Below are positions 24,003 to 47,796 of a DNA stretch of 64,000 nucleotides, one piece after another. Where the stretch lies: positions 59,586 to 123,585 of the forward strand of contig JAKQEI010000087.1 of NCBI GenBank assembly GCA_029573495.1. The letters run 5' to 3'. The notes below the pieces were generated by a model. That model saw only the letters and a list, made by a program, of their open reading frames with translations, had not been told where the DNA came from and did not search any database. How positions within the stretch are numbered: the stretch's first letter is position 1; each line of letters opens with the position of its first letter. A program made the position numbers and the translations under genes. This DNA is from Bacteroidota bacterium (lineage in GTDB: Bacteria > Bacteroidota > Bacteroidia > Flavobacteriales_F > PHOS-HE28).

Positions 24003-27214
<3,212 letters not shown>

Positions 27215-27232
27215 CGCGATAGCGCCCATCAC

Positions 27233-28126
27233 ATGCACGAACGTTTCCGCGGCCTAGGGGTCGCCATGGTCACACCCTTCCGAGCCAACGGTGGCATCGA
27301 TTACGCCGGGCTGGAGAAGCTCATCGAACACCAGATCACGGGTGGCGTGGACTACGTCGTGAGCATGGGCACCACGGGCGAGAGCGTGACCCTCAGCAGG
27401 GACGAGAAGAAGCAATTGCTCGCCACCACCATCGAACTCGTGCGTAACCGGGTGCCGGTGGTACTTGGCGTCGGCGGCAACAGCACTGCAGCTGTGATCG
27501 ACGATCTGAACAGCTTCGAAATGGACGGGGTGGACGGCATCCTCAGTGTGAGCCCGTATTACAACAAGCCGACACAGGAAGGTATCTACCAGCATTTCAA
27601 GGCCATTGCGCAGGTGAGCCTCCGGCCGATCATCCTGTACAATGTGCCGGGGCGCACCGGAAGCAACATGAGCGCCGAGACCACCGTGCGCCTGGCGCGG
27701 GACCTCAAGAACGTGGTGGCCATCAAGGAGGCCAGTGGCAACCTCGACCAGATGGGCATGATCCTGAAGCACAAGCCGAAGGACTTCTTGCTGATCAGTG
27801 GCGATGACACCTTGACGCTGCCCGCCATCGCGATCGGTGGCGTGGGCGTGATCAGTGTGGTGGGTAACGCACTGCCTGAGGAGACGAGCCGCCTGGTCCA
27901 TGCGGCGTTGAAGGGCGACCTGGCCACCGCAGGCAGGGAGCATCTCCGCCTGCTGGAGATCATCAACCTGCTATTCGCGGAAGGCAATCCGGGCGGCATC
28001 AAGTACGTGCTCAAGGCCCTCGGCATCTGCGAAGACCACATGCGGCTGCCGCTGGTGAACGTCAGTGAAGCACTTGAGAAGAAGTTGTACCACGCCCTGG
28101 CCGATGCCGAAGTGGTGAAGCTTTGA
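27233..28126 (+). CDS. dapA: 4-hydroxy-tetrahydrodipicolinate synthase
   Basis: DapA pattern (GVAMVTPF, GTTGES, YNVPGRTG, active-site Lys region AIKEASGN). Confidence 0.9.
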   Translation: MHERFRGLGVAMVTPFRANGGIDYAGLEKLIEHQITGGVDYVVSMGTTGESVTLSRDEKKQLLATTIELVRNRVPVVLGVGGNSTAAVIDDLNSFEMDGVDGILSVSPYYNKPTQEGIYQHFKAIAQVSLRPIILYNVPGRTGSNMSAETTVRLARDLKNVVAIKEASGNLDQMGMILKHKPKDFLLISGDDTLTLPAIAIGGVGVISVVGNALPEETSRLVHAALKGDLATAGREHLRLLEIINLLFAEGNPGGIKYVLKALGICEDHMRLPLVNVSEALEKKLYHALADAEVVKL

Positions 28127-28901: not shown

Positions 28902-29675
28902 CTAGGGGCGCACGACGATGTGTGTGAACGGCGATGCCGGCCGGCCGAAGCGGGCCAGCGTGCGGTCCATGCCTCCGGGCGCCGAGAGGATGCGGCATCG
29001 ACCTGCCGCTTGCACATCCGATAGACGGTGCATGTGGTAATGTCCGGCCATTTCCGGGAAGCCCAATTCCGCGTAATAGTTCGTACTGCGGGTCCGGGCA
29101 TCCTCCACCTCGGTCCGGCTCTGGTAAAGGATGGTGTCCAGGATATGCACCTCACCACGTGCACCTAACAGCTCACGGCATCGCGCGAGGGTTCCGGCGG
29201 CATCGGCGAAGTACTGGAAGCTGGCGGCGAACACGATCACATCATAGTGCTCCTTCGGTAGTTCCGAGGTGATCAGGTCGGCGCGTGCGAAGTCGGGACC
29301 GGGAAAGAGCCTGGCCGCCTGCTCCAGTTCTGCGGTAAAGGCATCGATGCCGGTGGTCATGTGTCCCTGTTGATGCAGCAGGTTGGTGAGCCAGCCATTA
29401 CCGCAACCAACATCCAGGATCTTCAAGGGACGATCCTCCTGTTCCAGAACATGGACCAGTCGACGGGCTCCCCGTGCCCGGATCCGCCATTCATCGGCGT
29501 TCCAAAGGGCGTCCCCGTTCGGCAGGGCACGCACCTCTTCATCCGTGAGCAAGCGGCGCTCCGCATCGCGCACCTGCCCGTAGAGATCCGCGAAGAGCGA
29601 AGGCCCGGCGAGGATCCGTACCCCGTTCTCGCATGGAGCCGCTTCAAGCCAGTTGCCCGTGAGGTTGGTGTTCAT
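28902..29675 (-). CDS. Class I SAM-dependent methyltransferase
   Basis: Motif I LDVGCGNGW. Acidic residue after strand 2. 4-bp overlap with upstream methyltransferase. Confidence 0.75.
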   Translation of the reverse strand: MNTNLTGNWLEAAPCENGVRILAGPSLFADLYGQVRDAERRLLTDEEVRALPNGDALWNADEWRIRARGARRLVHVLEQEDRPLKILDVGCGNGWLTNLLHQQGHMTTGIDAFTAELEQAARLFPGPDFARADLITSELPKEHYDVIVFAASFQYFADAAGTLARCRELLGARGEVHILDTILYQSRTEVEDARTRSTNYYAELGFPEMAGHYHMHRLSDVQAAGRCRILSAPGGMDRTLARFGRPASPFTHIVVRP

Positions 29676-30466
29676 GCCGACTTGCGCAAGGTGATCACGA
29701 AATGATCACCACCGTTCCGGATGAAGGGCAGGCTGGCCAGCCCATCCTCGATCCGTTCCAGGAGTTGGAAGATACGGGGCCAGCGCTCCATGAAGTCAAG
29801 TTGGTGCGGCGGTGGAACGAAGAAGGACAAGGCGCGATGGGCGATCACGCGATACCCTGGTCCGAGATGGTGGCGTGCATACGCGGGTCCGTAGTAGTGG
29901 CAGGTGAAGGCGTGACCCTCCACCACCGCCTCCGCACCACCGCGCTTCCAACGACGACGGGCCAGCTTGAGGTTGCCGCGCAGGGCCGCCATCAGTTCCC
30001 ACGGACTGAAGCGCGGCATGATCACCAGGGTGCATGTGCCGTTCGGCAGGAGCACACGGTCGATACCGCGCAGCACCTCATCAAGCCGCGCCGTGCAGTT
30101 CAAGCCACCGAAATTGCTGAATACATGCTGGAAGCGCCGGTCGCCGAGCCGGTCGAGTTCGTTGAAGGAACAGGCGATCACTTCCAGTGGGAGCTCCGGT
30201 GCTGCTGCTTGTTTCGCTCGTAGCTGGTCGATCATGCCCGGAGCCGCATCAGTGGCCAGGACCTTCATGCCTTGCGCCGCGAAGAAGCAACTGTCAATGC
30301 CTGTTCCAGCGTTCAGTTCAAGCAGCGTATCGCCGCGCTGCATGTTCTTCAGTGCCTGCCTCCTCACCCGTTCACGTACCCACGCGATCAACGGATTACC
30401 TGCATCAATGCTGTCGAACGCACCGGCCTGTGCGGAGAACGCGGTGCTCGCCTCCGTGGTCATCAT
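29672..30466 (-). CDS. Class I SAM-dependent methyltransferase
   Basis: Motif I LELNAGTGIDS. Rossmann MTase topology. 4-bp overlap with radical SAM gene. Confidence 0.75.
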   Translation of the reverse strand: MMTTEASTAFSAQAGAFDSIDAGNPLIAWVRERVRRQALKNMQRGDTLLELNAGTGIDSCFFAAQGMKVLATDAAPGMIDQLRAKQAAAPELPLEVIACSFNELDRLGDRRFQHVFSNFGGLNCTARLDEVLRGIDRVLLPNGTCTLVIMPRFSPWELMAALRGNLKLARRRWKRGGAEAVVEGHAFTCHYYGPAYARHHLGPGYRVIAHRALSFFVPPPHQLDFMERWPRIFQLLERIEDGLASLPFIRNGGDHFVITLRKSA

Positions 30467-31905
30467 GTCTTCGCCAGTCGGCTGATCCGGACCTGCTCCA
30501 TCCAGGTCACCGGCACGTAATAGAGCGTGGACAATATTCGTTGTGCCGCGAAGTGCTGGCCCTTGATCGCATTCCTCAAGGCCTCCAACCCCTGCTTGCG
30601 ACGGTACCGCTTGTGCACGTATCGATGCAATCGCTTGTAGTAGGCGGGACGCTGGCGGTTCTGGAACATCATGGCCAGATCGTCGCTATCGGTCCAGTTG
30701 GACTTGTCCACCAGGTCGGCCTTCACCTTCTCGTAAAAGAGCGTTCCTGGAAGGGGGTAGGAGATGGAGACGCCGATGTCATCCGGCATCAGTTCCTCCA
30801 CCATCGCGATGGTATCGTGTACGTCGGCTTCAGTCTCTCCCAAATAGCCGAACTGCAGGAAGAAGCCAACGCGCACACCCTTGGACCGCAACAGTCTCGT
30901 GGCCTCGGCGATCTGTTCCACCGTGGTGCCCTTGTCCATGGCATCGAGGATGCGCTGGCTGCCGCTCTCAGCGCCCACCCACACCTCCTCCAGACCACTG
31001 GCCACGAGCGCGTCGATGGTATCTGCCTCCAACAGCAGGTCCACCCGGCTCTGGATCTTGTAAGGGATGCGTAGCCCCTTCTCCTGAAGCAGGTCGCGGA
31101 AACGTTGGACCCAACCCGGCTTCAGCCCGAAGATGTCATCAGCGAACCAGATGTGATCGGGTCGGTGGACCAGCAAAGCCTCCAGCTCGCGCACCACATG
31201 TTCAGGTGACCGGCTGTTGTACCGATTGCCGTAGATCGGTTTCGCGCACCAGTTGCATTTGAAGGGACAGCCCCTTGTGGTCGCCAGGTTGAGGGAGAAC
31301 CGGCCATGTGCCTCCCGCCATATCCTTCGGTATGGTTCCAGATCGATCAGGTCCCAGGCGGGCAACGGCAGGGCATCGAGGTCCCGCATGACCGGCCGTT
31401 TCGCGGTGTTTTGGACGTTTCCGTTCTCCAGGAAGGCGATGCCCGGCACGTCGCCAGGCGTCCCATCGTTCCTCCAGCGATCGATGACATCCAGAAGACC
31501 GGGCTCCCCTTCACCCAGCAGCACCACATCCGCGCCGGCGCGCAGGTAGACCTCCGCATGGTCCGTGGCGTCGGAACTGTTCACGACCACACGGCAACCC
31601 GAACCCTTGGCTATTCCGATCATTCGGAACATGGCCTCCCGCATCACCGTGAGGCACATCTTCGTCAGGTAGTTGAACCCGTCGTCGAAGAACACCACCA
31701 CTTCCGGTCGATGCTTCTCGATTGCTGCTTGGAGCGGTTCAGGACCGGGCAATAGGCCGGTGTCGAAGACATTGACCGTGTGACCGGCCTGGCGCAGGAC
31801 CGCCGCCGCGAGCAGGGTGCCCATCGGTGGATAGGGTCTGGCATCGGCCCACTGCTTCGGGTCGAGGCGGTAGAAATAGCCGTGCGTGACAAGAACACCC
31901 GCCAT
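30463..31905 (-). CDS. B12-binding domain-containing radical SAM protein
   Basis: N-terminal cobalamin-binding-like Rossmann region. Radical SAM cluster motif CPFKCNWC (CxxxCxxC). 480 aa, typical of class B radical SAM methylases. Confidence 0.85.
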   Translation of the reverse strand: MAGVLVTHGYFYRLDPKQWADARPYPPMGTLLAAAVLRQAGHTVNVFDTGLLPGPEPLQAAIEKHRPEVVVFFDDGFNYLTKMCLTVMREAMFRMIGIAKGSGCRVVVNSSDATDHAEVYLRAGADVVLLGEGEPGLLDVIDRWRNDGTPGDVPGIAFLENGNVQNTAKRPVMRDLDALPLPAWDLIDLEPYRRIWREAHGRFSLNLATTRGCPFKCNWCAKPIYGNRYNSRSPEHVVRELEALLVHRPDHIWFADDIFGLKPGWVQRFRDLLQEKGLRIPYKIQSRVDLLLEADTIDALVASGLEEVWVGAESGSQRILDAMDKGTTVEQIAEATRLLRSKGVRVGFFLQFGYLGETEADVHDTIAMVEELMPDDIGVSISYPLPGTLFYEKVKADLVDKSNWTDSDDLAMMFQNRQRPAYYKRLHRYVHKRYRRKQGLEALRNAIKGQHFAAQRILSTLYYVPVTWMEQVRISRLAKT

Positions 31906-31908
31906 GGC

Positions 31909-32874
31909 TCAGCTTCTGCTCGGGGCCACTCGCTCCTCCAGTTCCGCCATGCGCGCATGGAAGCCATCAAGGACCCGCTCCTGGAAGTTCCTCGGATGAT
32001 GCTTGCTCACATAGGTCCGCGTGCGCAAGGCCAGTTCGAAGGTGCGCGCATCGAGATGGCCGAACTTCCGTTTCCAGAATCGCCAGGTAAGGTTCATGGC
32101 GCCCTGGTCCAGCATGGCTCCAAGGCGCCCGTTCATCAGGAGTTCCAGACGACGTTTGAACCGACCGCTTCCGATGCTGATCTCCCTGCTTCTCGGTCGC
32201 GGTACGTTCGGGTACATGTGGAAGGCCCAGGCGTTACGTGCGAAGAAGGCTTCCGTGGTGCCATTACCGTACATCGGGATCAGCGTCACCACCTCCGTGG
32301 CGGTGAAACGGTTCCGGTCCTCCACCTCCAGATGCTCGGAATCCAGGAAATAGTTCAAGCAGAAGTCGCGACGGCTGTTCAACAGGAAGATCTTCTTGTA
32401 CAGGATAAGGAGTGTCCTGGCGACCCATAATCTTCCCGGTGTCGTCACCACGAAGAAGTCGATATCACCGTCCTCGGCCAGGACGCCTTTGCTGAGGCTG
32501 CCACTGATGAAGACGGCTCGGACGAACGGAAAGCAGGCGATCCGGCGGGCCATGACAGTGGCCTTCGGCATGCGCGAACGGGCACGGCGTTCGCTCTCAA
32601 GGCGCCGGTCAGTGCGCTCTTCCACCTGCTTCAAAGCCCAATAGGCTCCGGAACGCTCGATCAGACCCCGCTCCTGAAGACCGCCGAGCAGGGCGATGAT
32701 GCGCGACGGGTCCTTGGTGAGCTGCGACAGGTAACGGATGATCTCGTCACTGCGCAATGGATGGGAGAACACGTCGAAGTATCCGAGCACGCGCAACACG
32801 GCCAGTTCAACGGAACGATCTTCCGGGGTGCCGCGCTCAGGAGGAGAGAGGGGAGGGGCGGGTCTGCTGTCCAT
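31909..32874 (-). CDS. Nucleotidyltransferase-fold (Pol-beta superfamily-like) protein with N-terminal wHTH-like region
   Basis: GSLSKGVLAEDGDIDFFVV matches hG[GS]x9-13DhD minimal NTase motif. First gene of 4-gene cassette, 3 nt from radical SAM start. Confidence 0.5.
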   Translation of the reverse strand: MDSRPAPPLSPPERGTPEDRSVELAVLRVLGYFDVFSHPLRSDEIIRYLSQLTKDPSRIIALLGGLQERGLIERSGAYWALKQVEERTDRRLESERRARSRMPKATVMARRIACFPFVRAVFISGSLSKGVLAEDGDIDFFVVTTPGRLWVARTLLILYKKIFLLNSRRDFCLNYFLDSEHLEVEDRNRFTATEVVTLIPMYGNGTTEAFFARNAWAFHMYPNVPRPRSREISIGSGRFKRRLELLMNGRLGAMLDQGAMNLTWRFWKRKFGHLDARTFELALRTRTYVSKHHPRNFQERVLDGFHARMAELEERVAPSRS

Positions 32875-32976: not shown

Positions 32977-33417
32977 CTACTCCTCCGAGGCCATGTACAT
33001 CTTCTTGATCCGCATCAACGGACCGGGGCAATGGCTGCCATGACAGTTCGCGCAGCTTTGCACCAGCGCATTGTACGCTTGCTGTCGCTTCGCAGGCTGC
33101 ACCTTGTACAACTCATCGAGCTTCAATTGATAGTCCTTCGCGAAGGTCGGGAAGGTGATCGGGTCGATGTGCATCCCCGGGGTCGGCTCGGCCTTTAACA
33201 GACCTTTGAATTCCTTCGGATAGGAGGGCAATCCATCACCACGGGATAACGCCGCTTTCACGGAGTCCGCATGGGCGGCCATCTGACGCATCATCAGGGC
33301 GAGCTCACTCGGAGGCGCGAGTTCTTGATCCACTTCCACTGCAGGGGGATCAGCGCTGATGAAGCAGCCGGCCAGCGCGGCCAATAGAAGGAAAAGGTGG
33401 GTGTTCAAGGCCATCAT
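32977..33417 (-). CDS. Small c-type cytochrome-like lipoprotein (single CxxCH)
   Basis: Signal peptide and lipobox LAGC. Heme-binding motif CANCH near C-terminus. Confidence 0.55.
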   Translation of the reverse strand: MMALNTHLFLLLAALAGCFISADPPAVEVDQELAPPSELALMMRQMAAHADSVKAALSRGDGLPSYPKEFKGLLKAEPTPGMHIDPITFPTFAKDYQLKLDELYKVQPAKRQQAYNALVQSCANCHGSHCPGPLMRIKKMYMASEE

Positions 33418-35910: not shown

Positions 35911-36924
35911 TCAAGGCCTGAAGGCCCTGATGGGCTGGAAGAGCCGTTCGAAGGCCGGACGTTGCATCTGAACGTGCAGCGTGTCCTGGATCAGCGCGTC
36001 CATGTACGTCGGGTCATACAGGGGACGCGGCATGCCGAAGGGAGGTTCCTCGCCCTTGTACGCCCGGAACCAGAAGCGTCCGCTCGTGGTCGTGCCATCG
36101 CGTTGGGTGATGCTCATGATCAGGTTCGGGGTCGTCCTCAACAGCGAGTCGCGCTTCGCCGGTTCCCAGCGTTCGATCTTCTCGAAGTTGGTCTGCTTCA
36201 GCGGGAGGATGGCACCGTGCACCAGCACGGTATCGAAGGGGACCGGGCGCCCGAGGTGGTCCTTCAGGGAGAACCGACCGTCCTCACCCTGCTCGATCTG
36301 GTAACCGTTCGCCGGGGCGGCCGGCATCTCCACTTTCACCGAGGCGATGTCACGCATGTCCGCCACATGGAAGAAGTCCGAACTGCGGAAGTGGTCCAGG
36401 TCCGTGTGGAAGCGGGTGGTGAGAATGCCTGTGAATCCGCCCATGCCCATGATGAAGGGAGCGTTGCTGCGACCGATCCCCGGTTTCTCGAGCAGCATGA
36501 AGGTGCCGAAGTGATCCTGCGTGCCATGGCCCACGATCCAGATCTTGGATGGCTTGTCCCCACCCTCGTAGATCTCCACGCGCTTGGCGGTGGCGGCCAT
36601 CACGCGCAGGGTCTTCGGCTGCAACGACTTCGGCACCGGACTCTTCACCTCGATCCGCTTGAAGGTCTTCAGCAACAGGTCCACCTCGTGCTGCTTGGCC
36701 ATGAACACGTCGTTCAAGCGCCAGCCTTCCTTGGTCCGCCGAAGGTCCACGGTGGTTCCGCCCTTGGTGTCCGCTATGAAGATGCGGGTGACCCCGGCCG
36801 TATCCGGCACGGCGAAGTCGCTCAAGGGCCGGTCCAGGGTGGTGGGGGCATCGTTGCGCATGAGCCACCAGGCAGCAGCACCCAGGACGATCACGACAAG
36901 AAGCAGGAGGACGCGGCGGTTCAT
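35911..36924 (-). CDS. DUF4340 domain protein (GldG-associated)
   Basis: N-terminal TM anchor. Positioned immediately downstream of GldG-like gene with 4-bp overlap, the typical arrangement. Confidence 0.65.
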   Translation of the reverse strand: MNRRVLLLLVVIVLGAAAWWLMRNDAPTTLDRPLSDFAVPDTAGVTRIFIADTKGGTTVDLRRTKEGWRLNDVFMAKQHEVDLLLKTFKRIEVKSPVPKSLQPKTLRVMAATAKRVEIYEGGDKPSKIWIVGHGTQDHFGTFMLLEKPGIGRSNAPFIMGMGGFTGILTTRFHTDLDHFRSSDFFHVADMRDIASVKVEMPAAPANGYQIEQGEDGRFSLKDHLGRPVPFDTVLVHGAILPLKQTNFEKIERWEPAKRDSLLRTTPNLIMSITQRDGTTTSGRFWFRAYKGEEPPFGMPRPLYDPTYMDALIQDTLHVQMQRPAFERLFQPIRAFRP

Positions 36925-40772: not shown

Positions 40773-41585
40773 TCAATTCCGGCTCCGTTCTCCGAACTCG
40801 ATGCGCACGGTATCCTCCTGGTGCACACCGAAGAGCCGGGCCGCACCACCGCCGAAGCCCTCCACACCCTTGTTCACCGCGATCTCCAGCAGCCCGGTGG
40901 CGTTGAAGAAGGCCACGCGTTCGCCCTGCGGAACATCCCCGTAGGATCCATGCAGGTTCAGGATGTCGTCCGCGCGATGGCCGAAGCCGATGCGGAAGGA
41001 GCGGCCCTTGCATACATCATCGAAGAGCTGCTTGCGCACGTTGGTCACCAGGTTGCCGTAGCTGTCGATGTACACGACCTTGCCGCGGATGCTCGTGGGG
41101 TCCACCGCGGGCTTGAAGCCGATCAGCTCCTTCACCCGGACCACCTTCCGCCCGATCACGTCCACCGTACCGCCGCGCGCCAGATGGCAGGCAGCCTTCA
41201 CGAACACGCTTCGGGTGGGGAATGCCGCATGGTCGTTGTCCAGCTTCATGGTCAGTTCGAAGGCCTCGTGCGGCATGCCCTCGAACAACAGGGAGAAGAT
41301 ACCGTTATCCGCGCCGATGAAGTAGTGTCCATCATGTCGCACCACCAGGTGCGGGGTCTGGCCATCGGCCTCCGGGTTCACCCCGATGATGTGGATCGTT
41401 CCCCTCGGGAACTCGGGATAGGCCTGGCGCAGCACGAATGCGGCTTGTGCGCTGTCAAAGGGCTTGATCCCATGACTGATGTCAACGATACGCGCCTCAG
41501 GGTACTGGGTCCAGATCGCACCCTTCACCGTGGCCACGTAATGGTCCCGCAGGCCCATGTCGGTGGTGAGGGTGATGATGGACAT
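40773..41585 (-). CDS. SAM hydrolase / SAM-dependent hydroxide (halide) adenosyltransferase family protein (DUF62)
   Basis: Conserved pattern ITLTTDMGLRDHYVATVKG ... DISHGI ... VVHIDSYGNL-like (VVYIDSYGNLVTN). Confidence 0.75.
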   Translation of the reverse strand: MSIITLTTDMGLRDHYVATVKGAIWTQYPEARIVDISHGIKPFDSAQAAFVLRQAYPEFPRGTIHIIGVNPEADGQTPHLVVRHDGHYFIGADNGIFSLLFEGMPHEAFELTMKLDNDHAAFPTRSVFVKAACHLARGGTVDVIGRKVVRVKELIGFKPAVDPTSIRGKVVYIDSYGNLVTNVRKQLFDDVCKGRSFRIGFGHRADDILNLHGSYGDVPQGERVAFFNATGLLEIAVNKGVEGFGGGAARLFGVHQEDTVRIEFGERSRN

Positions 41586-41683
41586 GGCACTGCGGAGCGA
41601 AGGCAACATCTACCTTCGGCGTCCAAAACTATCCCGGCACGGAAAGGGGTTCGGGTGGAAGAAATCAACGATCGAAAGTTACT

Positions 41684-42649
41684 TTGATTGAGAAGCTGAT
41701 CACGATCACCGGGGTGGACCCCGTGGAGGTCTTGGGCGCCAACGACGCCAGCCTGCGCATCATCCGCGGGCACTTCCCCAAGCTCAGCATCATCGCCCGA
41801 GGCGATACGCTGAAATTGAGCGGGACGGAGAACGATATCACCCAGTTCGAGGAGCGCTTCAAGCAGCTCGTGGAACACGCGGCACGCTACAATGAGCTTC
41901 CGCGGAAGGTGCTCGATGATATCATGGGTACGCACACGAGTCCGGGGGAACGGGAGAACCCGGATGAAGCCGATGTGCTGGTGTACGGGAATGCGGGCCT
42001 GCGGGTGAAGGCGCGCACGCCCAACCAGGAACGCTTGGTGGAGGCGGTCGCGGCCAACGACATGGTCTTCGCCATCGGTCCCGCTGGCACGGGGAAGACC
42101 TATACCGCCGTGGCGCTTGCCGTGAAGGCGTTGAAGGAACGCAAGGTGCGGCGGATCGTGCTCACGCGACCGGCTGTGGAAGCGGGGGAGAACCTCGGCT
42201 TCCTGCCGGGCGACCTGCGGGAGAAGTTGGATCCGTACCTGCAGCCGCTCTACGATGCTTTACGGGAGATGATCCCCGCCTCGAAGCTCGCCGACCACCT
42301 GGACGAAGGGGTGATCCAGATCGCTCCGCTCGCCTTCATGCGCGGCCGCACGCTCGACCATGCGTTCGTCATCCTCGACGAGGCCCAGAACGCGACGCTC
42401 ACCCAGCTCAAGATGTTCCTCACCCGCATGGGGCGCAATGCCAAGTTCGTGATCACCGGCGATGCCACCCAGGTGGATCTGCCCGACCGGCAGCCCAGTG
42501 GCCTGCTTCCCGTGGTGAACATGCTGCGCAATGTGGAAGGAGTGGCGGTTGTGGAGCTGGACGAGAAGGACGTGATCCGGCATGAGCTCGTGACCAAGGT
42601 GCTGAAGGCCTTCCGAGAGCTGGAGGCGAAGAACGAGCGGAAGTCATGA
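41684..42649 (+). CDS. phoH: PhoH-family ATPase
   Basis: Walker A GPAGTGKTY, Walker B FVILDEAQN. Confidence 0.9.
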   Translation: MIEKLITITGVDPVEVLGANDASLRIIRGHFPKLSIIARGDTLKLSGTENDITQFEERFKQLVEHAARYNELPRKVLDDIMGTHTSPGERENPDEADVLVYGNAGLRVKARTPNQERLVEAVAANDMVFAIGPAGTGKTYTAVALAVKALKERKVRRIVLTRPAVEAGENLGFLPGDLREKLDPYLQPLYDALREMIPASKLADHLDEGVIQIAPLAFMRGRTLDHAFVILDEAQNATLTQLKMFLTRMGRNAKFVITGDATQVDLPDRQPSGLLPVVNMLRNVEGVAVVELDEKDVIRHELVTKVLKAFRELEAKNERKS

Positions 42650-43609: not shown

Positions 43610-44728
43610 TCAACGCTGGAAGAACGCGGCGGTGGCCGGCCGTGTCCTCGTCCTCGGGAGACCTCGACCACCGGTGAAGAGGCCATACAACACCGGCATC
43701 CGGCGCGAGAGCCAGGCCGCGGTGCTGAAGCAGATCACCATGGTCACCAGCGGAGCCACCACGTAGATCATCAGTGCGGCCAATGGGGTGTCGCCCGACA
43801 GGAGGAAGAGGCTCTTCTTCAACACGGTGATCAGAGGCTCATGCGCGGCGTACAGGAAGAAGGAATAAGCCGACAACTTGAACAGGAAGCTACCCTTGAC
43901 ATCATCATCGCCCACCACCAGGTCGTACCATACCCATACCGCCGCCAGACCGAGCACGGTCGAAAGCTTGTGCATCACACGGACCACCTCGATATCCGCG
44001 GCGTTCAATAGCACCACGGCCGTCTTCGCCATCAGCAGGGCCAGCCAGCCCGCCACCAGCGTGCGACGTTGGCCGGTCGTGATGCTCGGGGTCCGGCCGG
44101 GTCCGCGCATGAACAACCAGGCCCCAGCGAGGTAGAAGGGCAGGGATTCGTTGGCGAGCACCACCAGGTCGATCTCGAACCACCAGGTGATCGCTGCAGG
44201 AAGTAGCGTCCACGCACCGATACGTCGGATGAGGACCATGAACACGGGGCTCAGGGCGAAGAGCACCATCAGGTCGCGCAGGAACCAGAGCTGATAGGGG
44301 ATCGGGTCAAGGAGGATCTTGTCGAACACCTGCAACGCAGAGAGCCCCCAGACCGGATTGTTGGGGAAGAGGCTGCGCATGGAGGAGGGCCATTGCATGA
44401 GCAGGTAGAGCAGGAAACCAGTGATCGACCAGAGCAGGTAGGGCACAGCGATGGTTCGCAGACGTTTCCTGAATTGAGTCAGGAAGCCGTCCCCGGGCCG
44501 CAGTACGGAGCGATGGAAGAAGTATCCTGACAGGATGAAGAACATGGGCACGCGGAACCGCGCAAGGCCCTGGCTCACGAAGTACTGGATGCTGAAGTTG
44601 AGCCCGTCCCAGGAGAGAACCCGGCCATGGAACGTGTTGGCCGGATAGGTGTACGCGTGCACCAAAGTGAGCAATACCATGGTGATCAAGGAGACCACCC
44701 GGATCTTGTCACTGAGTCTTGGGTCCAT
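43610..44728 (-). CDS. Acyltransferase-3 (OatA/OpgC-like) family membrane protein
   Basis: 10-TM profile with N-terminal conserved His (LTLVHAY) typical of acyltransferase 3 family. Confidence 0.75.
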   Translation of the reverse strand: MDPRLSDKIRVVSLITMVLLTLVHAYTYPANTFHGRVLSWDGLNFSIQYFVSQGLARFRVPMFFILSGYFFHRSVLRPGDGFLTQFRKRLRTIAVPYLLWSITGFLLYLLMQWPSSMRSLFPNNPVWGLSALQVFDKILLDPIPYQLWFLRDLMVLFALSPVFMVLIRRIGAWTLLPAAITWWFEIDLVVLANESLPFYLAGAWLFMRGPGRTPSITTGQRRTLVAGWLALLMAKTAVVLLNAADIEVVRVMHKLSTVLGLAAVWVWYDLVVGDDDVKGSFLFKLSAYSFFLYAAHEPLITVLKKSLFLLSGDTPLAALMIYVVAPLVTMVICFSTAAWLSRRMPVLYGLFTGGRGLPRTRTRPATAAFFQR

Positions 44729-44741
44729 CGGTGCGTGGCAA

Positions 44742-46205
44742 ATGTGGGCGCTCCCGTTGCGAAGTGCCAGCGGTGGGGGTCCTACTTTCGAGCCTGTGCC
44801 GGTTCATTACGCATCCTTCCGATGGTGGCTCCTGCTGCCTGTGCTCGTGGCCTGCGCCTGGGTGAGCACGGCAGGCTACCAGGGGCTCAACGGCCAGGAT
44901 GCGCACGACTACCTGCACCTCGCGGGCGGCTGGGATGCCTGGATGAGCGGTGGCGAACGACCTGTCATGGTGGAGCATCCGCATGGCTATCCCTTGCTCG
45001 GGGCCGTACTCGGTAAGCTTTCGGGTACGCTGTTCGCGATGCGTCTCATCCCATTGGTGGCATGGATGGGGATCGTATGGCTCATGCACCGGCTTCTGCG
45101 CAGGGATCTGACGGATGAACATGGCCTGACGGTCTATGTGTTGCTTGCTGTCTCCTTGGCTCCCTTCCTCCTGCGTCAGGCCCTGACGGTCATGAGCGAT
45201 GCTCCCGCATTGTTCCTCATCGTGGCTGCCTTTGCTGCGTACATCCGTTGGAAAGGGGGTGGTGGTACGTGGATGATCGTGTGGATGGCGCTTGCACTCG
45301 GTATCTCATTGACCGTTCGCACCGCAGCCGCACCGCTAGTGATCACCATGATCCTCCTCGTGGCATCGGACCGGATGGCACATCGGTTCGGCAGCCGCAC
45401 GCGCCGCATGATCAAGCTCCTTGGCGTGGGAACAGGCTTGGTCGTACTGTGGCTCCTTCGTCGCAACGGGGTCCTTCTCGATGGCCCGCTCGCGGATTGG
45501 ACTCCGCTCAACTGGTTCCGCAGTGAACTGCGCTCCGATGACGGTGTGCTGCGCTACACCTTGCCCAATCTGATGTACGCCGCATTCACATGTATCCATC
45601 CGGGCCAGTTCCCGCTCGGCGTGCTCCTGATCCCGTTCTTCCGGAAAGCCCACTTGAAGGACCCGCTCGTCCGACCCGCGGTGATCCTTCTTCTCGTTTA
45701 CCTGCTCTTCGTTGCAGGACTGCCGTTCCAGAATGACCGCGTTCTGCTCGCGGCACAGCCGTTCATCGTGATCACCTTTCACAAGGCCTTCACCGAGTCA
45801 TGGTCCTGGCTCAGGAAACGGGGATCATCCACGTGGATCACCGTGATCGGCATATCCATCGTTCAGGTCGCGCTCTTCGTTCGAGCCATGGTCCCCTTCG
45901 TGCGTCAGGCGGCAGCGGAACGTGAGGTGGCGGCCACCACCTGTGCCTTCGAGCCTGCACGGATCTACACCCATGGCATGGGTGCGGCATTGCTCACGTA
46001 TTGCCCGGGCGTGCGGGTCACGGAGCTGTGGTACGCGGAGATCGACCGCTTCGAGCCCGGTGCCTTCATCGTTGTTCGGCCCGAGGATCTCTCGAGCCAG
46101 TGGGTGGGCCGGCCACCGGGAACCAATTGGGACGCGCTACAACGGGCAGGAGCCTTTCCGGTGGTCGTTCGACCGGATGGATGGCTGATCGCCCGGCTAC
46201 CCTGA
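44742..46205 (+). CDS. GT-C-fold membrane glycosyltransferase-like protein (ArnT/PMT, GT39/GT83-like)
   Basis: About 11 TM helices. First periplasmic loop with D-x-H-D-Y (QDAHDYLHLAGGW) resembling the GT-C DE/DD motif. Start set to first ATG not overlapping convergent gene; track start is GTG at 44649. Confidence 0.45.
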   Translation: MWALPLRSASGGGPTFEPVPVHYASFRWWLLLPVLVACAWVSTAGYQGLNGQDAHDYLHLAGGWDAWMSGGERPVMVEHPHGYPLLGAVLGKLSGTLFAMRLIPLVAWMGIVWLMHRLLRRDLTDEHGLTVYVLLAVSLAPFLLRQALTVMSDAPALFLIVAAFAAYIRWKGGGGTWMIVWMALALGISLTVRTAAAPLVITMILLVASDRMAHRFGSRTRRMIKLLGVGTGLVVLWLLRRNGVLLDGPLADWTPLNWFRSELRSDDGVLRYTLPNLMYAAFTCIHPGQFPLGVLLIPFFRKAHLKDPLVRPAVILLLVYLLFVAGLPFQNDRVLLAAQPFIVITFHKAFTESWSWLRKRGSSTWITVIGISIVQVALFVRAMVPFVRQAAAEREVAATTCAFEPARIYTHGMGAALLTYCPGVRVTELWYAEIDRFEPGAFIVVRPEDLSSQWVGRPPGTNWDALQRAGAFPVVVRPDGWLIARLP

Positions 46206-46751
46206 GACCTCCTCCTTTCCCAGGCGAAGTCGCAGCACGTTCTGGACGTCTGTCAGAATAGCCGCCTTGTACGGATCCTGATCGGTCATACCAACACGCT
46301 CCATTCGACGAAGAGCGGCACGGGCCTCTTTCTCCGACCAGAACTCCTGGTTCTCGATCACCGTGAGGCATTCGAAGGATTCGGCTGCTGTTCCGGAGAG
46401 AGCGATGTCTACGAAGGTCTCCAGGCGTCCGCGCACGTCGATGCCGGCGTTCCAGAACGTGCTGAGGATGGTGGCCCTGATCCCGGCGAATTCCGCATCC
46501 TCCAAAGCGGCGAAGAGCGCCTCATCGGCTTGGGCGGCCTTCACCTGGAACAGGAGCTGGGTGATCCGCTGCTGGATGGCGGGGGAGTGGTTGTTCGCGA
46601 GTGCGACCAGTAGTGGCCGGATGGCACGCGCATCGCCCTCCGCATCGATCCGGGTGATGGCCGCCAGCACCTCCTCGTCGTCCTTGCTCAACAAGGAGGC
46701 GAAGGCGAGATCCATGCGCTTGGCCTTTTCAGTGGACTTGGAGGTTGCCAT
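46197..46751 (-). CDS. Hypothetical all-alpha (HEAT/ARM-like) protein
   Basis: In-frame ATG MATSKS at 46751. Upstream 84 codons of track ORF overlap end of OMP gene and are rejected. Confidence 0.4.
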   Translation of the reverse strand: MATSKSTEKAKRMDLAFASLLSKDDEEVLAAITRIDAEGDARAIRPLLVALANNHSPAIQQRITQLLFQVKAAQADEALFAALEDAEFAGIRATILSTFWNAGIDVRGRLETFVDIALSGTAAESFECLTVIENQEFWSEKEARAALRRMERVGMTDQDPYKAAILTDVQNVLRLRLGKEEVSG

Positions 46752-46785
46752 GGGGCCACGAAGGTAAAGCCGAAGCAACCCGGGA

Positions 46786-47796
46786 TCAGAGCCGCATGTA
46801 GGTGCGACGACCCGGTCGGCGTTTGAACTTATAGGATACCTCGAGGCTGAAATAGCTGAAGGAATCCAGCAACCCGGGATTGCCGCGACGGCTCGTCTTG
46901 ATGTCGTCGTTGTCCCCGACCGTGCCCCATCCTGTGGGATCGCTGATGTATCGCGCCAGCGTTCGATCACGATCGCTCTCGTAGAGCGCGTCGATCTGCT
47001 CATAGGTGGCGTACAGGTCGCTCACATCGTCCAGCTCGTCCGTCATGAACATGTAGTAGCAATACTCCACGCCCACGCTCAACTGCTTCGTCAACATGTA
47101 GCGCAGTCCCACGCCCATGGGCACACCGACGTGCCATGGCTTGTACTTGCGCGGCTTGCCCAGGTCCTTGTCCGTCCGGCTCGTTTCGGTGAGCCAGCTT
47201 CCCAGGTCGGTCTCATACCTGCCATCCCGTTCGATCACGGCCGCATTGGGTGTGCCGCGTGGTGCATCGCGGATCGTGCCATCGGACCAGAAGTAGTAGC
47301 GGTTCTCCGGATCCACGGTGCCACGGAAGAGGTCGGCCTTCGGCCGACCGTGGTAGATGCCCACACCAAGGTGGAAGAACATGAAGAACCGCTGCTGGAA
47401 GAGCGGGGTGTACGGTTCACGATAGGCATTGAGCACGAGGTGTCCCGATGCCCCGAGCAGGTCGTTGCGGAAGCTCAGCCCCCGGCGGAAGTTCTTCAGT
47501 TCAGTGGTAGGCACGTTGCGCATGGGGGCCGTTTCATCATAGCCGATGCGGAACCAGCTCAACCGGACCTCGGTCGTCAACGAACGGGTCACATACCGCT
47601 TCTTGTTGTTCAGGAAGTCCCGGAAGGTGACCTGCATGCCCGGACGCGCGCTGTTCCACTGAACTGGGCCGTCGATGTTGCCCAGATCCCCGTAGTAATG
47701 GGTCACGCCGGTGGCCAGCCCGATCTCCAGGTTGCGTTGCGCTCCGGCAAGCCCCGAAAGCAGGAGGGTGGTGACGAGAAGTGTCGGCCGGACCAT
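46786..47796 (-). CDS. Outer-membrane beta-barrel protein (DUF6089-like)
   Basis: Signal peptide MVRPTLLVTTLLLSGLAGAQ. Beta-strand periodicity. C-terminal ...SYKF. Confidence 0.55.
   Translation of the reverse strand: MVRPTLLVTTLLLSGLAGAQRNLEIGLATGVTHYYGDLGNIDGPVQWNSARPGMQVTFRDFLNNKKRYVTRSLTTEVRLSWFRIGYDETAPMRNVPTTELKNFRRGLSFRNDLLGASGHLVLNAYREPYTPLFQQRFFMFFHLGVGIYHGRPKADLFRGTVDPENRYYFWSDGTIRDAPRGTPNAAVIERDGRYETDLGSWLTETSRTDKDLGKPRKYKPWHVGVPMGVGLRYMLTKQLSVGVEYCYYMFMTDELDDVSDLYATYEQIDALYESDRDRTLARYISDPTGWGTVGDNDDIKTSRRGNPGLLDSFSYFSLEVSYKFKRRPGRRTYMRL

What the first reader, a model, noticed from the sequence alone, without database searches (positions are those of the whole stretch)
28902..32874. 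Tightly coupled four-gene cassette: NTase-fold protein, B12-binding radical SAM enzyme, two class I SAM methyltransferases
Four minus-strand genes are separated by -4, -4 and +3 nt, consistent with one translationally coupled operon. The first gene carries a minimal nucleotidyltransferase motif (GS-x10-DIDFF) behind a wHTH-like N-terminus. The second is a class-B (cobalamin-dependent) radical SAM protein with CPFKCNWC. The last two are Rossmann methyltransferases with intact GxGxG motifs. Class-B radical SAM enzymes usually methylate unactivated carbon or phosphorus centres (established for HpnP/HpnR, Fom3, TsrM, GenK families). Combining one with two conventional methyltransferases and an NTase predicts a multi-step methylation/nucleotidylation of an unknown small molecule, lipid or nucleic-acid substrate. 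I cannot assign it to any described pathway from sequence alone. The cassette sits between housekeeping genes (dapA/exonuclease and a cytochrome c/rhomboid pair) with no mobility genes, so it looks like a conserved chromosomal system rather than a horizontally acquired island.
Basis: partly seen in the sequence, partly recalled or inferred. Interest (0 to 1): 0.7.

Follow-up and report, generated by a model that had tools for sequence, protein, structure and literature searches.

The report
Uncharacterised Bacteroidota surface-glycan methylation cassette
Four tightly packed genes (a nucleotide-transferring enzyme, a vitamin-B12-dependent radical enzyme and two ordinary methyltransferases) form a real, widely conserved but unstudied module of Bacteroidota. 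In related genomes it usually lies among genes that build cell-surface polysaccharides, so it most likely decorates a surface sugar polymer.

Summary
Four minus-strand genes lie at the stated coordinates, with junctions of +3, -4 and -4 nt. They encode a wHTH-plus-Pol-beta-fold nucleotidyltransferase (NT), a B12-binding radical SAM enzyme (RS1) and two class I methyltransferases (M1a, M2). None reaches the cut-off of any curated NCBIfam family.

NT relatives occur in more than 516 species genomes, nearly all Bacteroidota. The conserved core is NT followed directly by RS1 and a methyltransferase. The exact four-gene form belongs to the window's own Flavobacteriales clade. Other lineages carry two to four B12 radical SAM paralogues and up to three methyltransferases.

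The new point is context. In 38 of 80 species loci the module lies next to GT-C-like, Wzy_C or GT1 genes. NT also occurs fused to a Bac_transf sugar transferase, to a GT1 glycosyltransferase and to an M2-type methyltransferase. The window's own GT-C-like gene lies 12 kb away. The NT catalytic part most resembles kanamycin and lincosamide nucleotidyltransferases, which act on sugar hydroxyls.

Best reading: a tailoring module for a Wzy-type surface glycoconjugate. The substrate and chemistry are inferred, not shown. It is an undescribed variant of a known kind and of moderate interest.

The parts
31909..32874 (-). NT: 321-aa protein with an N-terminal winged helix (about residues 17-80), a long linker helix, a Pol-beta-fold nucleotidyltransferase core (GS...DID, E194) and a helical C-terminal region with the invariant motif SKHHP.
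30463..31905 (-). RS1: 480-aa class B (B12-binding) radical SAM enzyme with a CPFKCNWC cluster motif. It starts 3 nt after the NT stop.
   Evidence: PF04055 at 76.9 bits and PF02310 at 33.4 bits. Best NCBIfam hits are BchE 125, MgmA 120 and HpnJ 118 bits, all far below cut-offs of 360-578. Best PDB hit is 9ccb, identified as MgmA in PMC11796369, at E 1e-22. Homologues share 60-84% identity. It directly follows NT in about 66 of 83 loci.
29672..30466 (-). M1a: 264-aa class I SAM methyltransferase, overlapping RS1 by 4 nt (ATGA).
   Evidence: Methyltransf_25, _11 and _12. Only weak sub-threshold NCBIfam hits: CpaM 38 bits, MenG 33 bits. Best PDB hit is CcbJ at E 9e-7. The M1a type (48-84% identity) occurs only in the window's clade. 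Other lineages have an M1b type at about 30% identity.
28902..29675 (-). M2: 257-aa class I SAM methyltransferase with an N-terminal extension of about 65 aa, overlapping M1a by 4 nt (ATGA).
   Evidence: Methyltransf_11, _23 and _25. BioC 59 bits and Tam 47 bits, both below cut-off. Best PDB hit is trans-aconitate methyltransferase at E 6e-8. An M2-type domain is fused to NT in P0289 (31% identity over 194 aa, E 4e-28).
44649..46205 (+). Unlinked probable partner: a multi-pass GT-C-like membrane protein. The ORF is listed from a GTG at 44649; the true start is probably later. Its orthologue sits divergently next to NT in 11 related genomes. Beside it lies an Acyl_transf_3 gene (43610-44728, minus strand).
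   Evidence: tblastn and blastp give 40-45% identity to the gene just upstream of NT in L006, L009, L011-L013, L015-L018, L021 and L022. Identity is 23-30% to the PMT_2-annotated gene inside the L085/L086-type clusters. Weak NCBIfam hits to GT-C 'cell surface glycopolymer' families. Acyl_transf_3 by Pfam.

Best explanation
The cassette is a cytoplasmic tailoring module for a Wzy-type cell-surface glycoconjugate of Bacteroidota (O-antigen-like polysaccharide, exopolysaccharide or another lipid-linked glycan).

Proposed steps:
1. NT is an active ANT/Lin-like O-nucleotidyltransferase with a winged-helix docking domain. It nucleotidylates a hydroxyl or phosphate of a sugar on the growing, probably polyprenyl-linked, unit. 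This activates the position or gives it a nucleotide handle.
2. RS1, translationally coupled to NT, uses 5'-deoxyadenosyl radical and methylcobalamin chemistry on that intermediate. The most likely reaction is methylation of an unactivated sugar carbon.
3. M1a and M2 add conventional O-, N- or carboxyl-methyl groups.
4. The modified unit is then handled by the GT-C-like and Wzy_C-type membrane proteins, which are encoded next to the module in many relatives and 12 kb away here.

Shown: gene structure, domain identities, conserved catalytic residues, conservation of the NT-RS1-methyltransferase core, and physical and fusion linkage to glycan-assembly genes.
Inferred: substrate class, order of steps, that RS1 is a methylase, and the handle role of NT.
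For: - Core conservation and tight coupling. NT-RS1(-MT) is present in about 66 of 83 loci from more than 516 species hits. NT/RS1 junctions of -4 to +4 nt are seen in independent gene calls.
- Glycan context. The same GT-C-like family occurs in 19 of 80 species loci, in different positions and orientations. Wzy_C(+TPR) occurs in 17 and one GT1 family in 10; the union is 38 of 80. No other flanking family exceeds 13 loci.
- Long clusters. L085 runs NT-RS1-MT-x-RS2-MT-PMT_2-GT1-RS3-MTS with GT87 nearby. L086 adds a polysaccharide deacetylase and an acetyltransferase. L090 has Wzz-Wzy_C directly upstream.
- Fusions. Bac_transf::NT sits in a GT1-GT4-Wzy_C-epimerase locus. GT1::NT is followed by RS1 and a carbamoyltransferase; two members from different sources have the same length. 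An M2-type methyltransferase is fused to NT.
- NT is catalytically intact everywhere. Its catalytic part is closest to kanamycin and lincosamide nucleotidyltransferases, which adenylylate sugar hydroxyls.
- Precedents. Fom3 methylates a cytidylylated substrate (PMC8158854). The B12 radical SAM review lists MoeK5, GenK and GenD1 among characterised Csp3-methyltransferases (PMC12931638). That these three act on sugars is from my own knowledge.
Against: - In the window itself no glycan gene is adjacent. The flanks are housekeeping genes and the GT-C-like orthologue is 12 kb away.
- 42 of 80 species loci show no glycan gene within 8 kb, though many contigs are short.
- Bacteroidota genomes are rich in polysaccharide loci, so some adjacency is expected by chance. 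I did not run a formal background test.
- RS1 is equidistant from a cyclase (BchE), a protein methylase (MgmA) and a ring-contraction enzyme (HpnJ), so methylation is not established.
- 14 loci have NT without RS1, so NT does not strictly need RS1.
- The MT::NT fusion comes from a contig with 2x coverage and could be an assembly error.
- There are no experimental data and no literature on this family.
Confidence: 0.5

Rival explanations
1. Membrane-lipid tailoring. RS1 (and its paralogues in relatives) methylate or otherwise modify the hydrocarbon part of a membrane lipid, as HpnP/HpnR do for hopanoids or Gmm does for archaeal tetraethers. The class I methyltransferases act on the head group and NT activates a head-group intermediate.
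For: RS1 and RS2 give sub-threshold hits to HpnJ, HpnR and the 'lipid biosynthesis B12-binding/radical SAM protein' model (118-154 bits). B12 radical SAM lipid methylases are well documented (PMC11214058, PMC12931638). In the window the cassette stands alone among housekeeping genes, as hpnP and hpnR often do (the latter from my own knowledge). GT-C, GT87 and GT1 neighbours would also fit a glycolipid.
Against: No lipid-synthesis genes recur next to the module. Fusions are to Bac_transf and GT1, and the neighbours Wzz, Wzy_C, RgpF, carbamoyltransferase and epimerase are polysaccharide genes, not lipid genes. All lipid-family scores are 3-6 times below cut-off.
Confidence: 0.17
2. Peptide or protein modification (RiPP-like). 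The winged helix of NT acts like a RiPP recognition element. RS1 and the methyltransferases methylate a peptide or protein, as PoyB/C, the bottromycin methyltransferases, MgmA or Mmp10 do.
For: The closest solved relative of RS1 by sequence is MgmA, a protein glutamine C-methylase (9ccb, E 1e-22). RS paralogues give sub-threshold hits to ApyD and 'RiPP maturation radical SAM C-methyltransferase'. Some relatives add a HemK/PrmC-like MTS methyltransferase. The nearest NT-core fold relatives include the MNT and DrrA nucleotidyltransferases. That these AMPylate proteins is from my own knowledge.
Against: There is no room for, and no trace of, a conserved small precursor ORF. Genes abut the module on both sides and the flanks differ between lineages. 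No protease, cyclodehydratase or exporter recurs. Fusions and neighbours are glycan enzymes.
Confidence: 0.08
3. Nucleic-acid modification or anti-phage defence. The wHTH-NTase binds DNA or RNA, or makes a nucleotide signal, and the radical SAM enzyme and methyltransferases modify nucleic acid.
Against: No meaningful PADLOC match. No nuclease, helicase or effector partner is present. There is no CD-NTase similarity. The locus is stable and vertically inherited in appearance, with native G+C content and no mobility genes. The conserved winged-helix residues (YFDxFxHP, E44) are not a typical DNA-reading surface, which is an inference.
Confidence: 0.05
4. Soluble small-molecule or cofactor pathway. 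The cassette methylates a diffusible metabolite (for example a corrinoid lower ligand, a quinone or a phosphonate). NT supplies a nucleotide handle exactly as in Fom1/Fom3.
For: Handle-then-methylate logic is established for fosfomycin (PMC8158854). RS2 of relatives scores best, though far below cut-off, against PhpK-type P-methyltransferases (171 bits versus 600). M1 and M2 weakly resemble CpaM, UbiE and BioC.
Against: No scaffold-forming gene (pepM, PKS, NRPS, bza, men, ubi) is linked in any of about 90 loci examined. The recurrent partners are membrane glycan-assembly proteins.
Confidence: 0.1

Closest known systems
Aminoglycoside/lincosamide O-nucleotidyltransferases (ANT(4')/KNT, LinB, AadA, AAD(9))
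   Different: There is no detectable sequence relationship (no PDB hit at E<=1) and identity is 11-18%. NT has an extra N-terminal winged helix, a long linker helix and its own invariant motifs (YFDxFxHP, NSxxxFCxNYF, SKHHP). It is not a resistance gene; it is a chromosomal gene coupled to a radical SAM enzyme.
Fom1 (cytidylyltransferase domain) / Fom3 (B12 radical SAM C-methyltransferase) of fosfomycin biosynthesis
   Same: A nucleotidyltransferase is paired with a class B radical SAM enzyme. In that system the nucleotide is a transient handle required by the methylase (PMC8158854). This is the logic proposed here.
   Different: The Fom1 cytidylyltransferase belongs to a different fold family (from my own knowledge, not tested here). 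RS1 scores far below the cut-offs of the curated phosphonate-pathway radical SAM families tested (PhpK 101 bits, Sden_1168 92 bits). No pepM or other phosphonate gene is linked.
Sugar C-methylating class B radical SAM enzymes in glycoside pathways (MoeK5, GenK, GenD1)
   Same: They are B12-dependent radical SAM methyltransferases (listed in PMC12931638). That their substrates are carbohydrate carbons of glycosides, lipid-linked in the case of moenomycin, is from my own knowledge. They work alongside ordinary methyltransferases and glycosyltransferases.
   Different: Those enzymes belong to antibiotic gene clusters of Actinobacteria. RS1 belongs to no curated family.
HpnI/HpnK/HpnJ and HpnP/HpnR (hopanoid side-chain and ring tailoring)
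   Same: A glycosyltransferase, a deacetylase and a B12 radical SAM enzyme act together on a membrane-anchored substrate. L086 carries GT1, Polysacc_deac_1 and several B12 radical SAM genes. HpnJ is among the top sub-threshold hits.
   Different: Scores are about five times below the HpnJ and HpnR cut-offs. No hopanoid synthesis genes are linked. There is no NT-like protein in hpn clusters (from my own knowledge).

Membership tests
Pol-beta-superfamily nucleotidyltransferase (Pfam NTP_transf_2, PF01909) | hG[GS] loop followed by a DxD (or [DE]h[DE]h) strand and a third acidic residue on a later strand | tested here: met
   PF01909 at 23.4 bits versus cut-off 21; 16 of 16 homologues hit it. G125, D137, D139 and E194 are invariant in 81 sequences (S126 in 76 of 81), and D178 is kept in 78 of 81.
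Pol-beta-superfamily nucleotidyltransferase (Pfam NTP_transf_2, PF01909) | alpha/beta NTase fold | tested here: met
ANT/Lin antibiotic O-nucleotidyltransferases | Sequence-level family membership and a helical C-terminal substrate domain of the KNT type | tested here: inconclusive
ANT/Lin antibiotic O-nucleotidyltransferases | Nucleotidylation of an aminoglycoside or lincosamide hydroxyl | not testable with these tools
   Needs an enzyme assay.
CD-NTase / CBASS-type signalling nucleotidyltransferases | cGAS/DncV-like fold and an effector partner in a defence operon | tested here: not met
MNT-HEPN toxin-antitoxin | Minimal NTase of about 100-140 aa paired with a HEPN RNase gene | tested here: not met
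   NT is 321 aa with extra domains. The downstream partner is a radical SAM enzyme, not a HEPN protein. The similarity is confined to the NTase core.
Class B (cobalamin-dependent) radical SAM enzymes | N-terminal B12-binding Rossmann domain plus a radical SAM core with CxxxCxxC | tested here: met
   PF02310 at 33.4 bits (cut-off 32.1) over residues 25-137. PF04055 at 76.9 bits over residues 209-368. CPFKCNWC is present.
Class B (cobalamin-dependent) radical SAM enzymes | Cobalamin actually bound and methyl transfer chemistry | not testable with these tools
   Needs reconstitution. Class B also contains cyclases, dehydratases and ring-contraction enzymes (PMC12931638).
Curated B12 radical SAM families (BchE, MgmA, HpnJ, HpnR, PhpK, BzaD, AprD4, ladderane-type, RiPP C-methyltransferase) | Score at or above the NCBIfam curated cut-off | tested here: not met
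   Best scores are 125 (BchE, cut-off 481), 120 (MgmA, 360), 118 (HpnJ, 578) and 101 (PhpK, 600) bits. The paralogues RS2-RS4 of relatives also fall below all cut-offs.
Class I SAM-dependent methyltransferases | Rossmann-like methyltransferase domain with the glycine-rich SAM loop | tested here: met
   M1a: Methyltransf_25 at 43 bits and _11 at 41 bits, loop NAGTG. M2: Methyltransf_11 at 48 bits and _23 at 47 bits, loop GCGNG.
BioC / Tam / UbiE-MenG / CpaM (specific methyltransferase equivalogs) | Score at or above the NCBIfam cut-off | tested here: not met
   M2: BioC 59 bits versus 185, Tam 47 versus 297. M1a: CpaM 38 versus 180, MenG 33 versus 327.
Wzy-dependent surface polysaccharide locus | Initiating phosphoglycosyl transferase, glycosyltransferases and Wzy/WaaL-like (Wzy_C) and Wzz genes encoded with the tailoring genes | tested here: inconclusive
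   Met in relatives: L088 has Bac_transf::NT, GT1, GT4, Wzy_C and an epimerase. L089 has Bac_transf, Wzy_C twice, RgpF and GT1::NT. L090 has Wzz and Wzy_C. 38 of 80 species loci carry GT-C, Wzy_C or GT1. Not met locally in the window: only a GT-C-like gene and an Acyl_transf_3 gene lie 12 kb away, and no Wzy_C homologue is found in the 64 kb.

The most novel reading that the evidence does not exclude
The NT family is a previously unrecognised class of glycan-directed nucleotidyltransferase. It installs a transient nucleotide handle on a lipid-linked sugar, and the coupled B12 radical SAM enzymes then build C-methyl-branched or otherwise radical-modified sugars. In relatives with up to four radical SAM paralogues these could be multiply methylated. 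Such sugars in the surface polysaccharides of abundant environmental Bacteroidota would be a new route to branched-chain sugars that acts after glycan assembly, not at the NDP-sugar stage.
Probability: 0.22. Interest if true: 0.72.

Novelty: new variant of a known kind. Interest (0 to 1): 0.52.

Why it matters
Class B radical SAM enzymes are one of the largest pools of unassigned radical chemistry. Almost all characterised members come from antibiotic, pigment, hopanoid or methanogen pathways.

Here a distinct family (RS1, 60-84% identical among its 120 closest database relatives) is locked to an undescribed wHTH-nucleotidyltransferase family. That family comprises 849 clusters at 50% identity with E<=1e-30. 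It is carried by more than 500 species of Flavobacteriales, Saprospiraceae and Chitinophagales, groups common in lakes, oceans and activated sludge.

If the module decorates surface polysaccharides, it would explain part of the unassigned methylation capacity of these genomes. It would also predict unusual, possibly C-methylated, sugars that affect phage receptors, grazing resistance and the recalcitrance of marine polysaccharides. Finally, it would give a second, independent example of 'nucleotide handle first, radical methylation second'. If it instead acts on a lipid, it could point to new methylated biomarkers.

Tried and rejected
- Curated families: NCBIfam and Pfam scans of all four proteins and of the paralogues in relatives gave no family above cut-off.
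- PDB sequence searches: nothing for NT and only distant hits for RS1, M1 and M2.
- PADLOC: only trivial methyltransferase and radical SAM matches, so defence was rejected.
- Rfam on the whole window: no family at gathering threshold, so no riboswitch or RNA element is associated.
- Sigma-70 promoter and terminator scan: nothing above the shuffle expectation. It is also not informative for Bacteroidota promoters.
- Search for a precursor-peptide gene: there are only overlapping shadow ORFs inside the genes. One 37-codon ORF that I read from the sequence overlaps the convergent exonuclease gene. No conserved small ORF was found across loci, and the flanks are not conserved. The RiPP reading was therefore down-weighted.
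- The 146-aa CxxCH lipoprotein upstream of NT was considered as a fifth member. It is present only in the five closest relatives and was rejected.
- The afdb50 fold library was unavailable.
- Look-up of the Lewinella cohaerens homologue P0422, the only cultured carrier seen, found no record.
- Literature searches for the gene combination returned nothing.
- My first regular-expression test of catalytic motifs in NT-alone proteins was too strict and misleading. It was replaced by an alignment.

Full report
**1. Observation**

The ORF table and the sequence show four co-directional minus-strand genes:
- NT, 31909-32874, 321 aa
- RS1, 30463-31905, 480 aa
- M1a, 29672-30466, 264 aa
- M2, 28902-29675, 257 aa

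The NT stop is followed by 3 nt and then the RS1 start. The RS1/M1a and M1a/M2 junctions are ATGA overlaps. Long antisense ORFs in the same region are shadow ORFs of a 62% G+C genome.

Pfam confirms NTP_transf_2 for NT (23.4 bits, just above the cut-off of 21). RS1 has B12-binding plus Radical_SAM. M1a and M2 hit several class I methyltransferase models.

G+C content is the same as in the flanks. The flanks are LigA, DUF6913, DapA and an RNase_T exonuclease on one side, and a CxxCH lipoprotein, rhomboid, META, DnaN and a GldG-like ABC auxiliary protein on the other.

**2. No known pathway**

NCBIfam gives nothing for NT. For RS1, M1a and M2 it gives only hits three to six times below the curated cut-offs: BchE 125 bits versus 481, MgmA 120 versus 360, HpnJ 118 versus 578, BioC 59 versus 185.

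The closest solved relative of RS1 is 9ccb at E 1e-22, which is the MCR glutamine C-methylase MgmA (PMC11796369). A profile of the NT family finds no PDB sequence at E<=1. PADLOC and Rfam add nothing. Full-text searches for the gene combination return no paper.

**3. Distribution and anatomy of the module**

NT has 1886 relatives in the 90% identity database. An exhaustive search finds 6002 clusters at 50% identity with E<=1e-3, of which 849 have E<=1e-30.

The best 80 are all Bacteroidota MAGs (Flavobacteriales, Saprospiraceae, Chitinophagales, 'Bacteroidia'), apart from a few records with odd titles that look mis-binned.

I classified the ORFs of 83 loci against reference proteins. The architectures were:
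- NT-RS1-M1a-M2, the window's form: 17 intact plus 3 with split genes. All are close Flavobacteriales relatives (NT 45-84% identical).
- NT-RS1-M1b-RS2, with or without M2: 21.
- (RS4-)RS3-MTS-NT-RS1-M1b-RS2: about 10.
- Truncated contigs with NT-RS1.
- NT alone: 14, mostly Saprospiraceae.

RS1 is more conserved than NT (60-84% identity among the best 120 hits). Independent gene calls show NT/RS1 junctions of +3, +4, +1, -1 and -4 nt. The invariant unit is therefore NT followed by RS1 and a methyltransferase. The four-gene cassette is one lineage's version of a modular system that elsewhere holds up to four B12 radical SAM paralogues and three methyltransferases. None of the paralogues reaches a curated family cut-off either.

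**4. What NT is**

The AlphaFold model (pLDDT 77.6) has four parts:
- an N-terminal winged helix
- a 30-residue linker helix
- an alpha/beta NTase core
- a helical C-terminal region

In an alignment of 81 sequences, S124, G125, S128, K129, D137, D139, E194, S290, K291, H292 and H293 are invariant (P294 in 80 of 81). This includes the NT-alone proteins. NT is therefore an active enzyme of the Pol-beta superfamily. It is structurally nearest to enzymes that adenylylate sugar hydroxyls, but it has its own domain architecture and motifs and no curated family.

**5. Context: the main new result**

Flanking genes are not conserved as such, but three membrane or glycan families recur:
- A GT-C-like multi-pass protein, annotated PMT_2 in some members, in 19 of 80 species loci. 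It is either divergent from NT or inside the operon downstream of M2.
- Wzy_C proteins (O-antigen ligase/polymerase type), often with TPR repeats, in 17 loci.
- One GT1 family in 10 loci.

Together these cover 38 of 80 loci. No other flanking family exceeds 13.

Annotated long loci make this explicit:
- L085: Wzy_C | NT-RS1-MT-x-RS2-MT-PMT_2-GT1-RS3-MTS, with GT87 and a SPASM radical SAM gene next to it.
- L086: NT-RS1-MT-RS2-MT-(GT-C-like)-GT1-polysaccharide deacetylase-acetyltransferase-PMT_2.
- L084 and L087: Wzy_C(-TPR) directly upstream of NT.

Three fused forms found by the exhaustive search are Rosetta-stone links:
- Bac_transf::NT, inside a GT1-GT4-Wzy_C-...-epimerase locus.
- GT1::NT, followed by RS1, a carbamoyltransferase and another B12 radical SAM gene, with Bac_transf, two Wzy_C genes and RgpF upstream. 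Two members from different data sources have the same 681-aa length.
- M2-type methyltransferase::NT, followed by RS1-M1b-RS2 and preceded by Wzz-Wzy_C. This contig has low coverage, so this fusion is tentative.

In the window the cassette has no glycan neighbour. However, the orthologue (40-45% identity) of the GT-C-like gene that lies divergently beside NT in 11 related genomes is present at 44649-46205, next to an Acyl_transf_3 gene. It gives weak hits to GT-C 'cell surface glycopolymer' families.

**6. Mechanism proposed**

The module most likely tailors a Wzy-type surface glycoconjugate on the cytoplasmic side. The proposed steps are:
1. NT nucleotidylates a sugar hydroxyl or phosphate, for activation or as a handle.
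2. RS1 carries out cobalamin-dependent radical chemistry on that intermediate, most simply C-methylation.
3. M1a and M2 add conventional methyl groups. The BioC/Tam-like signal of M2 hints at a carboxyl ester, but that signal is very weak.
4. The GT-C-like and Wzy_C proteins handle the product.

Two precedents support the logic. Fom3 needs the cytidylylated substrate made by Fom1 (PMC8158854). MoeK5, GenK and GenD1 are listed among characterised class B radical SAM Csp3-methyltransferases (PMC12931638). That they act on sugar carbons is from my own knowledge.

Shown are the gene structure, the domains, the conserved catalytic residues, the conserved pairing and the genomic and fusion linkage. 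The substrate, the reaction types and the order of steps are inferred. I put 0.5 on the glycoconjugate reading as a whole and roughly 0.2-0.25 on the specific handle-plus-C-methylation mechanism.

**7. Rivals**

- Lipid-core methylation (HpnP/HpnR/Gmm-like) remains possible, about 0.17. It lacks any linked lipid gene.
- A RiPP or protein target, about 0.08. It is disfavoured by the absence of any conserved precursor ORF, protease or exporter.
- Nucleic-acid modification or defence, about 0.05. It is disfavoured by PADLOC, by the lack of effectors and by the native, stable locus.
- A soluble metabolite or cofactor, about 0.1. It lacks scaffold genes in about 90 loci.

**8. Caveats**

- I did not compute a background rate for glycan-gene adjacency in Bacteroidota.
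- Many loci come from short MAG contigs.
- Structural similarities are fold-level only.
- Whether NT-alone genomes carry RS1 elsewhere is unknown.
- No cultured carrier could be inspected.

**9. Verdict**

The finding is real. It is better seen as one lineage's four-gene version of a widespread, modular NT-RS1-methyltransferase system linked to surface-glycan assembly. It is a new variant of a known kind (class B radical SAM tailoring cassettes) with a novel nucleotidyltransferase partner. Interest is moderate, and higher if the handle and C-methyl-sugar chemistry is borne out.

Noticed in passing
window 43610-46205: A GT-C-like multi-pass membrane protein (ORF 44649-46205, plus strand, no Pfam hit) lies divergent from an Acyl_transf_3 gene (43610-44728, minus strand). 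The former is the orthologue of the gene that sits beside NT in 11 related genomes, so part of the system appears to have been separated from the cassette in this genome.
   Followed up: yes
window 24627-28126 and L084 785-4242: The ligA-DUF6913-dapA block next to the cassette is also found, in the same order, about 5 kb from the NT-RS1 cluster of a distant Bacteroidia MAG (L084; NT there is about 45% identical). In that genome the cassette is in the opposite orientation relative to the ligA-DUF6913-dapA block. This suggests an old chromosomal neighbourhood rather than recent acquisition.
   Followed up: partly
window 32977-33417 (minus strand): A 146-aa predicted lipoprotein (signal peptide ending LAGC) with a single C-terminal CxxCH haem-binding motif and no Pfam or NCBIfam hit. 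It lies 102 nt upstream of NT on the same strand, but only in the five closest relatives.
   Followed up: yes
L003 8206-9556: In the ENA metagenome contig that carries an NT 100% identical to the window's, RS1 is called as two genes (203 and 243 aa). The window's RS1 is intact, and an identical 480-aa protein (P0121) exists. This is probably an assembly frameshift in that contig.
   Followed up: partly
L069 4280-12506; L085 9118-20130; L089 10001-18395: Some relatives carry three or four B12 radical SAM paralogues in one cluster, with a HemK/RsmD-like MTS methyltransferase, a carbamoyltransferase, GT87 and a SPASM radical SAM gene. This implies a much more heavily modified product than in the window's genome.
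   Followed up: partly
L063, L069, L075, L079 (record titles): Four loci with typical Bacteroidota-type clusters come from MAGs titled Henriciella, Methylacidiphilales, Vulcanococcus and Desulfobacterales. This is probably contig mis-binning rather than true occurrence outside Bacteroidota. I did not check it.
   Followed up: no
window 35911-36924 (minus strand), 46197-47796 (minus strand), 40821-41687 (plus strand): Several ORFs of 270-340 aa have no Pfam hit. The 337-aa one lies between dnaN and the GldG-like gene and is conserved in the closest relative contig L003. I did not examine them further.
   Followed up: no
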